From: Stegostoma tigrinum | Taxonomy: Eukaryota | Assembly (NCBI RefSeq): GCF_030684315.1 | Contig: NC_081396.1 | Span: 1,054,001 to 1,118,000 of the forward strand | Reading direction: 5' to 3' | DNA length: 64,000 nt | In this document: positions 32,021 to 39,288 of the stretch, one piece after another | How positions within the stretch are numbered: position 1 is the first letter of the stretch | How the letters are laid out: the number at the start of each line of letters is the position of its first letter | Translations under genes and position numbers: made by a program | Notes under the pieces: model-generated | The model's database searches: none | Seen by the model: the letters and a program-made list of their open reading frames with translations, nothing else | Told to the model about the DNA's origin: nothing

Positions 32021-32454
32021 ATGAGTTCGCTAAGCTTTCTTCCTCTTCTTCTTGCTTTCATATCCAGTACGTAGACCTAATTGTTTCTTTCAACTAAATT
32101 GTAACGTGGTTTTCAGCTTCTTAGTTTTTTAATGTTGCTTTGTTTGACTAGGTGTCCAGTCAGAAGTATCGTTGACTCAACCGGAGGAAGAGATGGGAAT
32201 TGCTGGACAGTCTCTGAGACTGATATGTAAAACCAGCGGGTTTGATCTGGGTGTCTACGATATGTACTGGTACCGACAAAGTCCTGAGAATGGTCTGCAA
32301 TGGTTAGTTCGGTACTATAGTGAAGGAAACAAAGCTTTTAATCCAGTCGTTGAAAACCGAGCTGCTGCTTACAAAGACCTCACAAACAATGTGTTCACTT
32401 TGGATATCAGACCTTTGAGGATTTCAGATAGCGCAACATATTATTGTGCGAGAG
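32021..32454 (+). CDS. IgVH-like V segment (TAILV-like), apparently functional (leader 32021-32066, V exon 32152-32454)
   Basis: MSSLSFLPLLLAFISSVQS-EVSLTQPEEEMGIAGQSLRLICKTSGFDLGVYDMYWYRQ...KDLTNNVFTLDI...DSATYYCAR has shark VH hallmarks. 85-nt GT..AG intron, no stops. Confidence 0.93.
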
Positions 32455-32493
32455 CACAGTGAGACAGATCAGATCCAAACCTGAACAAAAACT
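32455..32493 (+). promoter_or_regulatory. 23-RSS of the IgVH-like V at 32021
   Basis: CACAGTG, 23-nt spacer, ACAAAAACT. Confidence 0.97.
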
Positions 32494-33436
32494 CACGAGA
32501 GGAAATGATACATTTTCTTCGGCTCTCACTGATAGTATCATTACACATATCGTAAACAGCAGCTCACTGAATAGTGTTGTGGCTGATTAATATTTACTGA
32601 ATAACGTAACAACGAACTAGGCTTTGTTTGACAGTTGGGTGTTTGCGTGTGCGTGTGTGTATGTGTGAGTGCGTGTGTGTATGAATATATGTGTGTGAAT
32701 GTATGTGTGTCTGTGCGTGCGTGTTTGTGTTTTCTCTAAGTTTACAGATGTGAATGATAGTTTTTGTATGACTACGTGTCGATTCAGTGCAACAGTTAAA
32801 TTTATATGCAATCCCACAATACTGTATATCAGTCTCCCCGTCCCAATATATTTAGCTCCCTTAATTGATCTTTCACTTTCTCTAGTCTTAGTTTCTCCTT
32901 CTTTCTGATCACCTCTTCCGTTCCCATTTAATTACTGAATTTAATCTCAATTTGATTGGAGACTCCATGCTGGAAACAATAAAAATCAGCCATGTGACCG
33001 TGTATATAATGTCAATTTGAAGAGAGTTCTTTTCAGCTGATTTTTAACATGATAACTTTCGTTACTGACTGCAATACTGTACTCAAGGTTTACATGATAT
33101 AGTGTCTAAGTGATTCCTGGCCTTTGCTTTGGTCTTGTCTTTGAACAGGATTGTTCCAAATTCACTTCCTGCTTTGGACTGTTGTACATAATCAGGAGGA
33201 AAACCACTGTTTATTTTGGCTTTGCATACCAGTGAGTAGGACATGAAGTTGGTGGTTCTGAAAAATGATGATTGTCCTCATTATGTGAATGGAACTGACA
33301 GTTTAGATTCTGAGGAGCTATCAGTGTGCAGTGGTAGAATTCCTATGCCTTTTTCAAACAGATTCCAGTTCTAGATTCACTTGTGGTGTCTAATAATATC
33401 TCTGAGCACGTTGCTTCGAAAATAGGGATCCTTCAT

Positions 33437-33716
33437 CATAGAATCCCTGCAGTCTGGAAACAGGAACTTCCGACCAGCAAGTTCACATCAACCCATCCCC
33501 CAAAAACCCACCTAAGCTCCACCACCCTGAACACTATGGGCAATTTAGCATGGTGAATCCGCCTAGCCTGCATAACCTCAGACTGTGGAAGGAAACCGGA
33601 GCACGAGGAGGTAATCCACTCAGACACGTGGAGAATGTGCTAACTCCACATTGACAATCGCCAGGCCGTGGAAGTGAACTTGGCGCTGTGAGGAAGAATT
33701 GCTACCCACGGTGCCA
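33437..33716 (-). mobile_element. V-SINE (HE1-like), decayed
   Basis: Same head, central domain and tail as the SINEs at 7284 and 19363. Confidence 0.8.
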
Positions 33717-33864
33717 GCTTTAGAATCTTACTGGTGACAATTCATGTAATATTTAAACATTGAATAGGGATGCTCCACAAAACTCACTTTCAGTCACCGA
33801 TTGTTTCTCCTCTGGAATGTTGTTGATGGTCAGAGAGCGAAGCTGTTGCTTTGGCTCGTGTCTG

Positions 33865-34030
33865 CCTGGAGTATCTGCACTGTTACCCTTTGAGTTGTAA
33901 CATGGTGCTGATCAGCAAGCAGTGATAATCGGAAATATTTTCTCTCCCGATATCTGCAAAATGGAAAGATCTCTGTTGTTGATCGAGGTGAAGATTGGGC
34001 AGATGCATTTACTGCAGGTGTCCTTCTAGG
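33865..34030 (-). pseudogene. Inverted V relic, FR3/RSS part
   Basis: Homologous to the 3' half of 20538-20845. YHCLL followed by a CACCATG heptamer-like site on the minus strand. Confidence 0.55.
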
Positions 34031-36497: not shown

Positions 36498-37294
36498 GGT
36501 CCAAATGTAGAGTCACTGAGAGTCAAGAATGCACGTAACTTTAAAAGGCTGTGTTCAACATCATTGTGTGCAACACAGGGTGAGTTCAACAAACATGTTG
36601 ATTGAACATATGTGGAAGCAGGAGAAAACGGAGGGACAGGCTGGCAAATGCAGGGAAGGAGGAAGAGGAAAATACCCAGCGTGATAAATAGGCACACAGA
36701 AAAAATAAACTGTCATGCATGTTCGTTGGACAATAGAGACAAAGATAGTTTAGACAGGCAGACAGGCAGGCAGTTCGATATATAAACGCGGTGCTCACAC
36801 ATTAAAATAGGACATTTCGATTGAGAGAGAGCATATGCGCAAGCGTTTGAAAATAATGCACTCTTTGACAATTTTGTTACATGAATTTATGCATTTTCTG
36901 TTAAAATTGACAATTTTTCTAATCCCCACGATGAACCTCTCTCTATCCTTCATAGTGGCCATCTCCGAAATCCCCACGCTGATCCAATGTATATTTTGGC
37001 GTTGCTGTCAGATTGGATGGGACTGTATGCTGCTCCTTAACGTTTTGAGTGATTCCTTGGTGATTTTTGCCTTTCCCAGTTGCAATAGACGCCGACGGCC
37101 GGCAGGGGGAGGAATTGCTTCGCTTTCAGCAAGAAGTGAAAAAACAGTACAGAGGCTTTTCCTTCATTCAACTTAAATAAATCTCCTGTCGTGGAGAGAG
37201 AATCGTGCTCAAACAGAGAACGATATATTTTGGTGCACCATCAGGCATGCACGGAGACAAACTAACTTACAAACACAGAAAAACCTACATAAAC

Positions 37295-37345
37295 GTACAC
37301 AGACAGAGACACAGACAGACACAAACATACTGACAAACACACTCA

Positions 37346-37392
<47 letters not shown>
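37295..37392. repeat. (CA)n microsatellite
   Basis: Visible dinucleotide run. The paralogous positions at 3498 and 30512 are N runs. Confidence 0.95.
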
Positions 37393-37393
<1 letters not shown>

Positions 37394-38772
37394 AAATACT
37401 TATGTACTCACACAGCTGTACACGCCGATTTTCACTTGCACACAGTGGCAGGTACGTATCCATGCTGTGTGGTTTGTACCTTCCTGCCTATTGTAACTTA
37501 TGTATAATTAATATGCAACGTCATTATTTTTGCATTTGCAGCCCTTGTACTTGCTGCAAACTCTGCAGCTGTTGTAGTAAGTATGTAACAGATCGAAGTT
37601 TAATTTCTGTCATTCCTTAGGATTCAAGAACCTTCTGACAAAGTGAGAAAATTCATGTTTAAGATTGCGAACTCTGCAGATGTGGCAAGATGGGATCCAG
37701 CTGCGGTGACGCTCCTGACGTGCATAATCACCTCATCATACTTGCCAAATCTCTTAAATGCACACACTCAAAATATTTCGATTCCTGGAACTATCCATCT
37801 ACAATTTGACAAATGAACGTTGGAAAGTCTCGAGCATCCTTTTGGGCAGTTCACTTCATATCACTATGAAGTGCTGCTCAATTAAAATATCTCCATGCGA
37901 TCCCCAAACCCTTTGTAACGTGTATGTACCTTTGGTAAGACAGTGGATAACAAAACGTTTGTAAGGATTTACTGGAATTTGACATGACCATTATCTGGCA
38001 GAAAAATCATGCTTAACAAATTTGCTGGGAGCTTTATTTTAGGGATCTAGCCAATAGAATAGATAATGTTGAGTCACTGTATTTGTTAGATTTGAATTTC
38101 CACAAAGCTTTTGAAAATGTTCTGAGCAAGACGACAGCGGGTACCAGTCAACCTCAGGGCTCTCGGGTTATAACTTTCTTATGCAAGGCAAATTGGCAGA
38201 TCGATGTCAAACGAGAGTGGGAAAAAATGAGCACTTTTCTGCCGAAGGGAAATGGGGGCCCATTTGCATATCGGATTCTCGCTATGCCTGTAATATATTC
38301 AAGCAAACCCTGAAATAATTTAGAAATACCTTGAGATTGTTAGCGAGATAGAGTCCGAATCCAATGTAGGTTTGTTTCTGTATGTGTTGCATAGGGGACT
38401 GTACTGTTTTGATGACTGTTTACACATATAAAGTTGCTTTTATGAATAAAATATTACTTTGAAATGTAAAAAAAGAAACAGGCTTAGACTGTCAATTCAC
38501 GAAATCTTTAACAACCGGAATGAGACGGTGCTGCCAGCCAGCCTGTTGGGGATCGTAAACACCCTTTGTATTTATATCAGACGTCAATCCCCACGTCTTT
38601 ACATTAGAGATCAATGGCTGTCAGCCAATCTCTTATGATCTCAAACCCACCCCTTCTGCTGCTGATTGATAAAACTTTGTGAGTGTAGATCAAAATCCAA
38701 CAGTAGGCAGAGCTGCTTTTTCAGCGAGCGACTGGAGAACAGGCTGCCTCATTTAAGACAGCGTCTAGAATC

Positions 38773-39288
38773 ATGTGGTCACCGAAATTTCTCCCTTTTC
38801 TTCTTGCCTTAGTCTCCAGTGCGTAGGTCTAATTGCTTCTTTCAACTAAATTTTAACGTGGTTTTCAGTTTGTATGGACATATCTTTCCTGGGCTGTGTC
38901 GTGGGGAGTAGTGGCATGTGAGGAGAGAGGTAAAGATCTGGATTGATGCAATTTAATAAATTTTCCTTTCCGTTCCTTTACTAGGTGCCCAGTCGGAAGT
39001 ATTGTTGACCCAAATGGAGGCAGAGAGAGGCATTGCTGGACAGTCTCTGAGACTGACATGTAAAGCCAGTGGGTTTGATCTGAATGCATACGATATGTAC
39101 TGGTATCGAAAAAGTCCTGGGAATGCCCCTCAATGGCTAGTTCGGTACTATACTGAAGTAAGCAAACATTTTAATCCAGAGTTTGGAAAGCGAGTTGCTG
39201 CTTACAAAGACGTTACAAACAATATGTTCACTTTGGATATCAGACCATTGAGGATTTCGGATAGCGCAATATATTATTGTGCAATGAG
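38773..39288 (+). CDS. IgVH-like V segment (TAILV-like), apparently functional (leader 38773-38818, V exon 38985-39288)
   Basis: MWSPKFLPFLLALVSSAQS-EVLLTQMEAERGIAGQSLRLTCKASGFDLNAYDMYWYRKSPGNAPQWLV...DSAIYYCAM. 166-nt GT..AG intron, no stops. Confidence 0.92.

What the first reader, a model, noticed from the sequence alone, without database searches (positions are those of the whole stretch)
32152..39288. VH scaffold carrying a TCR/light-chain-type pairing interface in FR2
Seen: FR1 and FR3 are shark-VH-like (SLRLTCKTSGFDL, KD..NN.F.LD, YYCAR), but FR2 reads WYRQSPENGLQW and WYRKSPGNAPQW, and the pseudogenes read PGNSPQL and PGNGP*W. Established: VH normally has WVRQ...GLEW, whereas Tyr after the conserved Trp and Pro at the GLEW Leu position are typical of VL and TCR V-alpha/delta interfaces. 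Inference: the Ig-derived V has been re-tuned to pair with a TCR beta/gamma V instead of an Ig light chain, and the two intact paralogues differ (Leu vs Pro) at this key contact.
Basis: partly seen in the sequence, partly recalled or inferred. Interest (0 to 1): 0.7.

Follow-up and report, generated by a model that had tools for sequence, protein, structure and literature searches.

The report
Shark antibody-type T-cell receptor V genes
These are two intact antibody-type variable genes inside a shark T-cell receptor locus, a known gene class; all intact copies carry one T-cell-type residue (Tyr) in the pairing face that the shark's true antibody genes lack, likely a fit to T-cell receptor partners, while the Leu/Pro difference between the two copies likely means little.

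Summary
The window lies in the V array of a shark TCR alpha/delta locus, about 125 kb from D-delta. The two VH-like genes are TAILVs (known class; the scan met TAILV arrays in other genomes). The FR2 readings are correct. Tyr42 is real: 5 of 5 intact TAILVs, 0 of 22 IgM/IgW VH, 21 of 21 TRAV/TRDV, and present in three other sharks' orthologues. But the interface is hybrid, not TCR-type: VH Trp52 is kept (5 of 5; 0 of 25 TCR alpha/delta V). Pro50 is in 2 of 5, flips repeatedly on the tree, and occurs in true VH (catshark IgM, 3 of 96 squamate domains), so the Leu/Pro partner-switch idea is not supported. The same Tyr42 plus Trp52 appears in opossum V-mu-j (solved, pairs with V-gamma), some turtle VH beside TCR V genes and coelacanth VH, but in 0 of 96 VH of squamates, which lack TCR delta; one origin is rejected (p-AU 8e-6). 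Likely mechanism: Tyr42 compensates for Phe118 of TCR J replacing Trp118 of JH. Untested; retention of an ancestral Tyr in sharks is not excluded (p-AU 0.08). Key TAILV papers were unreadable.

The parts
32021..32066 (+). Leader exon of TAILV gene 1 (MSSLSFLPLLLAFIS), GT donor at 32067
32152..32454 (+). V exon of TAILV gene 1, open (L001, P0001); Tyr42, Gln44, Gly49, Leu50, Trp52
   Evidence: matches contigs of 4 of 4 runs
32268..32303 (+). FR2 IMGT 41-52 of gene 1, WYRQSPENGLQW
32455..32493 (+). 23-RSS of gene 1 (CACAGTG-23-ACAAAAACT)
38773..38818 (+). Leader exon of TAILV gene 2 (MWSPKFLPFLLALVS), GT donor at 38819
38985..39288 (+). V exon of TAILV gene 2, open (L003, P0002); Tyr42, Lys44, Ala49, Pro50, Trp52
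39101..39136 (+). FR2 IMGT 41-52 of gene 2, WYRKSPGNAPQW; Ala49Thr variant (39125 G>A) in one sample
39289..39327 (+). 23-RSS of gene 2 (CACAGTA-23-ACAAAAACC)
6554..7103 (+). TAILV pseudogene (L015): leader intact, stop after Cys23, Leu42, Pro50, Leu52, 23-RSS at 7065
44586..44927 (+). TAILV pseudogene (L005): no leader ATG found, splice acceptor lost, two stops, Tyr42, Pro50, Trp52, 23-RSS at 44889
14887..15218 (+). Conventional TCR alpha/delta V, open, with 23-RSS at 15180 (context)
27830..28117 (+). Conventional TCR alpha/delta V with one in-frame stop (context)
51732..52022 (-). Inverted TCR alpha/delta V copy, open frame but WNRQ in FR2 and no RSS found by the scan (context)

Best explanation
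The two genes are intact TAILV segments, IgM-related V genes that sit in the shark TCR alpha/delta V array and carry Tyr42 with VH-type Trp52; they would join TCR D/J by inversion, and Tyr42 is likely an adaptation to the Phe118 that every TCR J supplies and to a TCR partner, most likely V-gamma. Shown: gene anatomy, locus, residue counts, clade across four sharks, purifying selection. From established structure (recalled): positions 42 and 118 sit side by side on the inner sheet; VH has small Val/Ile42 with Trp118, while VL and TCR V have Tyr42 with Phe118. Inferred: a VH that is always finished by a TCR J loses Trp118, and Tyr42 refills that space, restoring a symmetric TCR-like core, while Trp52 stays. 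Position 50 faces the partner's residue 118, which is Phe in any TCR partner, so Leu and Pro are both tolerated and do not pick the partner.
For: Locus: C-delta at C55:947.1-947.4 kb, J-delta about 952-961 kb, a D at 961.06 kb, J-alpha at least 850-916 kb, C-alpha 843-844 kb, all on minus; the window is C55:1054001-1118000 with V on plus. 36 of 36 J segments passing a strict scan have Phe118; 7 of 7 IgM/IgW loci examined have a WGxG J within 1.5 kb and 0 of 7 TAILV loci have any J there. Residues: Tyr42 5/5 TAILV, 0/17 IgM VH, 0/5 IgW VH, 21/21 TRAV/DV; Trp52 5/5 TAILV, 0/25 TCR alpha/delta V. TAILVs of this shark, S. canicula (P0023, a gene model joined to J and C-delta), C. maximus (P0006) and C. 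punctatum (P0011) form one clade 98/91, all 3 foreign ones with Tyr42. dN/dS 0.48 overall, 0.31 in FR2 among 5 open copies. Precedents: opossum V-mu-j (7K0Z) has Tyr42-Pro50-Trp52-Phe118 and pairs with V-gamma (PMC7615758 passage); this shark's sigma-type light chain has the same four residues (L063). Squamates lack TCR delta (PMC11754216 passages) and show Tyr42 in 0 of 96 VH domains. One origin of Tyr42-VH rejected, p-AU 8e-6. Position 50 contacts partner 118 (H-Leu45/L-Phe98, L-Pro44/H-Trp103; PMC8382685 passage).
Against: No expression or rearrangement data: no RNA run listed. No structural test succeeded. Ordinary IgM/IgW VH with Val42 are also joined to TCR delta D-J-C in nurse shark (PMC5931798 and PMC12227049 passages), so Tyr42 is not required. 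A tree with shark IgM and IgW VH together and TAILV outside is not rejected (p-AU 0.08), so Tyr42 could be retained rather than regained. 42/118 coupling is a class-level correlation with few independent events. The loci of the coelacanth and most turtle Tyr42 genes were not verified, 6 of the 9 turtle Tyr42 domains come from proteins I picked for having Tyr, and one turtle VH fused to a TCR-type V has Phe42 (P0245). Xenopus, bird and platypus VH-delta were not seen.
Confidence: 0.58

Rival explanations
1. Tyr42 is the ancestral V-domain residue kept by an old TAILV lineage, or a near-neutral reversion once the gene left the IgH constraint; it marks the lineage but was not selected for a partner.
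For: All non-VH V classes here have Tyr42. IgM plus IgW VH as one clade without TAILV is not rejected (p-AU 0.08). Val42 VH work on TCR delta by trans-rearrangement. Phe42 occurs in true VH (L030, L061, P0052), one base from Tyr.
Against: Best tree nests TAILV with IgM VH (96/97). A single origin of non-Tyr VH across vertebrates is rejected (p-AU 2.7e-5). Tyr is fixed in 8 of 8 intact shark TAILVs with both TAC and TAT codons, but is lost in 2 of 5 pseudogenes, which fits purifying selection.
Confidence: 0.25
2. One reading: a TCR/VL-type interface was installed, and the Leu50 and Pro50 paralogues prefer different partners (for example V-gamma versus V-beta).
For: Pro50 is common in TRAV/DV (16 of 21), TRGV (5 of 6) and light chains, absent from 22 IgM/IgW VH here. 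Gene 2 also has Lys44 instead of Gln.
Against: Trp52 kept; Leu/Pro mixed inside each TAILV subgroup, 3 changes among 8 intact genes by a single C/T transition; Pro50 in true VH; both TCR partners offer Phe118.
Confidence: 0.08
3. The Tyr codon came by a short gene-conversion tract from neighbouring TCR V genes.
For: Val/Ile to Tyr needs two base changes; codons 41-44 of gene 1 are 12 of 12 identical to one TRAV/DV; TCR V genes are interleaved with TAILVs.
Against: Codons 45-52 and all other frameworks are closer to IgM VH than to TRAV/DV (gene 1: FR1 0.67 vs 0.35, 45-52 0.61 vs 0.40, FR3 0.60 vs 0.43); the 12-base match is what the shared WYRQ protein motif gives; a Phe intermediate exists in VH. 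This rival is about origin and does not exclude the best explanation.
Confidence: 0.06
4. Tyr42 marks an unpaired, nanobody-like domain as in camelid VHH or NAR-TCR.
For: Camelid VHH rows carry Phe/Tyr42 (P0073, P0152).
Against: Those rows have Arg50 and Gly/Phe/Leu52; TAILV keeps Leu/Pro50, Trp52, Tyr103. No own D-J or supporting V behind the genes. The unpaired opossum V-mu has a broken FR2, the paired V-mu-j resembles TAILV.
Confidence: 0.03

Closest known systems
[quoted passage not shown] 2019 (not held, recalled); defined in PMC12227049 text and Table S1
   Same: IgH-like V without its own D-J-C, inside the TCR alpha/delta V array, 23-RSS, separate clade from IgM and IgW VH; groups with the catshark model P0023, which by name, species and scaffold size is likely LOC119960437 ('IgWVTCRD', next to the gene labelled TAILV in Table S1).
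   Different: At least 10 copies here (5 open, 5 broken); inverted relative to D-J-C. I could not compare with nurse shark TAILV sequences, nor see whether the FR2 residues were discussed.
Opossum TCR mu V-mu-j domain (PDB 7K0Z, 7K0X, 7L15)
   Same: VH-related domain with Tyr42, Pro50, Trp52, Phe118, paired with V-gamma; same four residues as gene 2 would have after joining.
   Different: Germline-joined, invariant support domain under a second V; amniote VH lineage, not orthologous to TAILV.
VH-delta of coelacanth, amphibians, reptiles, birds, platypus
   Same: VH-type V used on TCR delta; turtle models P0093 and P0142, fused to TCR-type V, and coelacanth P0003 show Tyr42 with Trp52.
   Different: Other VH clans; the VH-delta status of these database proteins is inferred, not shown.
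Shark IgM VH
   Same: Nearest relatives: 49-56% identity to gene 1 for the open IgM-cluster copies on C55, same FR1/FR3 pattern, Trp52.
   Different: Val/Ile42, invariant Leu50-Glu51, own JH with Trp118 within 1.5 kb.

Membership tests
TAILV | IgH-like V sequence | tested here: met
   On the VH side of the tree (95/88); with IgM VH 96/97 without FR2
TAILV | Lies within the TCR alpha/delta V array | tested here: met
   Interleaved with TRAV/DV; D, J, C-delta and C-alpha mapped 93 kb and more before the window start
TAILV | Distinct lineage from IgM and IgW VH | tested here: met
   One clade 98/91 with three other sharks' genes; 88/92 without FR2
TAILV | No IgH D-J-C cluster of its own; 23-RSS | tested here: met
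   No J within 1.5 kb in 7 of 7 TAILV loci; 23-RSS
TAILV | Expressed with TCR C and not IgH C | not testable with these tools
   No RNA holder listed; catshark relative is joined to C-delta only in a gene model
TAILV | Orthology to the nurse shark TAILV sequences of Deiss 2019 | not testable with these tools
   Paper not held; no named TAILV protein returned
IgM/IgW VH cluster gene | V-D-D-J minicluster with WGxG J and C exons | tested here: not met
IgM/IgW VH cluster gene | Val/Ile42, Leu50, Trp52 | tested here: not met
   Tyr42 in both genes; Pro50 in gene 2; Trp52 met
Conventional TRAV/TRDV | Groups with TCR alpha/delta V; Tyr/Phe/Leu52 | tested here: not met
   About 23-30% identity to window TCR V; Trp52; separate side of tree
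Single-domain V (VHH / NAR type) | Hydrophilic FR2 (Arg50, loss of Trp52) | tested here: not met

The most novel reading that the evidence does not exclude
Val42-to-Tyr with Trp52 kept is a repeated, convergent signature of antibody V genes taken over by T-cell receptors (shark TAILV, coelacanth and turtle VH-delta, marsupial V-mu-j): one residue that refits a VH to the Phe118 of TCR J and to V-gamma, usable as a sequence marker of TCR-dedicated VH in any genome.
Probability: 0.4. Interest if true: 0.58.

Novelty: new member of a known kind. Interest (0 to 1): 0.36.

Why it matters
The genes themselves belong to a described class. What may add something is the residue pattern: if Tyr42 recurs whenever a VH becomes dedicated to TCR delta or mu, it gives a one-residue test to tell TCR-resident VH from antibody VH in unannotated genomes, and a single-mutation experiment on what separates an Ig from a TCR pairing face. 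I did not find it in print in the searches run, but the papers most likely to mention it could not be read.

Tried and rejected
Expression: no RNA holder listed; the four runs laid show no intron skipping or joints, so they say nothing on rearrangement. Folding catshark P0023 as a single sequence failed (mean pLDDT 33.8); no fold search was run on it. Complex prediction was not used: a V-V pair is textbook, one job cannot compare V-gamma, V-beta and VL, and germline V lacks the J strand that carries position 118. ESM Atlas gave no answer. Word-based protein search with gene 2 found nothing, with gene 1 three long proteins. Pfam PF09291 did not find C-alpha; a genome-wide RSS pattern was swamped by chance hits; C-delta was found with P0023. 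PDB searches with gene 1 and a shark V-gamma returned antibodies only, no shark TCR among the 60 rows shown each. Duck supplement unreadable; chicken supplements held no VH-delta sequence. Papers not held: Deiss 2019, Ott 2020, Ott 2021, Criscitiello 2010, Parra 2010, Saha 2014, Morrissey 2022. Rejected: whole-FR2 graft from TCR V; single-domain reading; Leu/Pro partner switch. Rows dropped: L052 was mis-extracted and left out of counts (by it has Tyr42, Pro50, Tyr52); L042 was not extracted; 13 near-duplicate or broken rows left out of the tree; the tree used 38 chosen rows.
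Full report
Observation. Each has a leader exon, GT-AG intron, open V exon and 23-RSS. Two broken copies lie at 6762-7064 and 44586-44888; the first has Leu42, not Tyr. Public contigs confirm gene 1's V exon in 4 of 4 runs and gene 2's FR2 in 2 of 4, with an Ala49Thr variant; these are one study and look like DNA.

Locus. The window is G000:C55:1054001-1118000. A catshark relative joined to a TCR constant region (P0023) located C-delta at C55:947 kb on the minus strand. 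Fetched stretches show J-delta at about 952-961 kb, a D with 12/23 signals at 961.06 kb, J-alpha over at least 850-916 kb and C-alpha at 843-844 kb. The window's V genes are on plus, so joining would be by inversion (inference). Ten VH-like genes lie at C55:1.03-1.20 Mb among TCR V genes, 5 open and 5 broken (a lower bound). VH clusters with their own JH lie at 3.0-4.9 Mb and 0.2-0.6 Mb; the IgM and IgW labels are mine, from sequence type (recalled) and from named relatives. This layout matches TAILV as defined in PMC12227049 (passages, section 6 and Table S1 part 1 read). Deiss 2019, which coined the name, was not held; what I say of it is recalled.

Interface positions (IMGT numbers assigned by alignment from Trp41). 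Position 42: Tyr in 5/5 open TAILV, 0/17 IgM VH (Val 9, Ile 7, Phe 1), 0/5 IgW VH, 21/21 TRAV/DV, 4/4 NAR-TCR support V, 6/6 TRGV, 4/5 TRBV, 7/8 light chains. Position 50: TAILV Leu 3, Pro 2; VH Leu 22/22; TRAV/DV Pro 16/21. Position 52: TAILV Trp 5/5, VH Trp 20/22, TCR alpha/delta V 0/25, sigma-type light chain 2/2. So one interface position is switched throughout, one varies, one stays VH-type. The face is a hybrid. These V sets are samples of the hits, not full repertoires.

Other sharks. S. canicula P0023 (Tyr42, Pro50, Trp52), C. maximus P0006 (Tyr, Leu, Trp) and C. punctatum P0011 (Tyr, Leu, Leu) group with the five open genes and three pseudogenes in one clade, 98/91. With FR2 removed, TAILV sits with IgM VH at 96/97. 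dN/dS among the open copies is 0.48 overall and 0.31 in FR2. Position 50 changes 3 times among the 8 intact genes, and a S. torazame IgM chain has Pro50 (P0067).

Beyond sharks. The profile search (best 150 of 2932 listed) returned VH-type domains with Tyr42 in opossum TCR mu V-mu-j (P0099 = 7K0Z; Tyr42, Pro50, Trp52, Phe118), turtles and coelacanth. PMC7615758 states that V-mu-j pairs with V-gamma (passages). As a control, 48 squamate proteins gave 96 VH domains with Tyr42 in 0, Phe in 4, Pro50 in 3; squamates lack TCR gamma and delta (PMC11754216 passages). Turtles: Tyr in 9 of 93 domains, of which 6 come from proteins I chose for having Tyr; 0 of 18 on one M. mutica contig against 2 of 2 on another. 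Two Tyr42 turtle models are fused with TCR-type V genes; a third such model has Phe42. The loci of the rest, and of the coelacanth genes, were not verified. Tyr42 VH as one clade is rejected (p-AU 8e-6), and so is non-Tyr VH as one clade (2.7e-5). Within sharks, IgM plus IgW VH excluding TAILV is not rejected (0.08), so gain versus retention is open there.

Mechanism. From PMC8382685 (passage): conserved contacts are H-Leu45 with L-Phe98 and L-Pro44 with H-Trp103, that is, position 50 faces the partner's 118. Recalled: 42 packs beside 118 in the same domain. Inferred: a VH always completed by a TCR J loses Trp118, and Tyr42 refills the gap, giving the Tyr42/Phe118 core of TCR and light chains; the same four residues as gene 2 plus J occur in this shark's sigma-type light chain (L063) and in V-mu-j. 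Since any TCR partner offers Phe118 and both Leu and Pro face it in this locus's own TCR V genes, position 50 should not select the partner. V-gamma is the likely partner on delta chains; use on alpha chains is possible as the 23-RSS also fits J-alpha. Against necessity: IgM/IgW VH are joined to TCR delta in nurse shark (PMC5931798 passages; PMC12227049 section 6). No model or expression data tested any of this.

Literature. Searches found no statement on FR2 of TAILV or VH-delta. Also seen as passages only: PMC3457774, PMC12529555, PMC5278385, PMC10972964, PMC11610561. Deiss 2019, Ott 2020 and 2021, Criscitiello 2010, Parra 2010, Saha 2014 and Morrissey 2022 were not held, Morrissey 2021 was not asked for, figures are not held, and the duck supplement was unreadable; any of these may already note the Tyr.

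Verdict. Known gene class, new members. Interest 0.36.

Noticed in passing
G000:C55:843000-1240000: Most V genes nearest the D-J-C block, including all TAILVs in the window, are inverted relative to D-J-C delta and alpha; two TAILV copies at 1.169 and 1.195 Mb are co-oriented.
   Followed up: partly
window 39110-39112: Gene 2 has Lys44 in place of the Gln that is invariant in 22 of 22 IgM/IgW VH; V-gamma families here have Gln, His or Arg at 44. Coelacanth P0003 also has Lys44 in one domain.
   Followed up: no
window 32163-32450 and 38996-39283: Other TAILV-wide changes against VH: Asn at the YAP motif (FNP, 8 of 8), Gln in AGQS (8 of 8), and an SDSA motif before YYC that matches many TCR alpha/delta V rather than VH EDTA.
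   Followed up: partly
window 31820-31925 and 38570-38675: TAILV promoters share AGA(C/A)GTCA-like, CAGCCAAT and GATTCATAAAA motifs that the same scan did not find upstream of 7 IgM/IgW VH; gene 1 and L006 also have an ATTTGCAT octamer.
   Followed up: partly
window 39125: Ala49Thr allele of gene 2 in one sample; a Val2Gly change (39000) in the other.
   Followed up: no
G000:C55:5150000-5790000 and 9100000-9184000: TCR alpha/delta V and NAR-TCR support V genes also lie beyond the IgM clusters, 4 to 8 Mb from C-delta.
   Followed up: no
L013, L023 (G000:C55:4849727, 3073578): IgM VH with altered or missing RSS and a J unusually close (L013 at about 430 bases): possibly partly germline-joined clusters.
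   Followed up: no
P0153, P0156 (C. milii): Elephant shark VH-like genes with Tyr42 but Arg50 and Lys52, a non-pairing type FR2; they fall in the IgM/TAILV group in the FR2-free tree.
   Followed up: no
G000:C51:585909-819263 (L065, L066): A separate small cluster of TCR-like V genes with two C1 exons in opposite orientation, distinct from the beta (C59) and gamma (C5) loci.
   Followed up: no
window 30700-46700: The TAILV genes sit in roughly 6-7 kb tandem duplication units, 70-81% identical to each other and to 1500-8500.
   Followed up: partly
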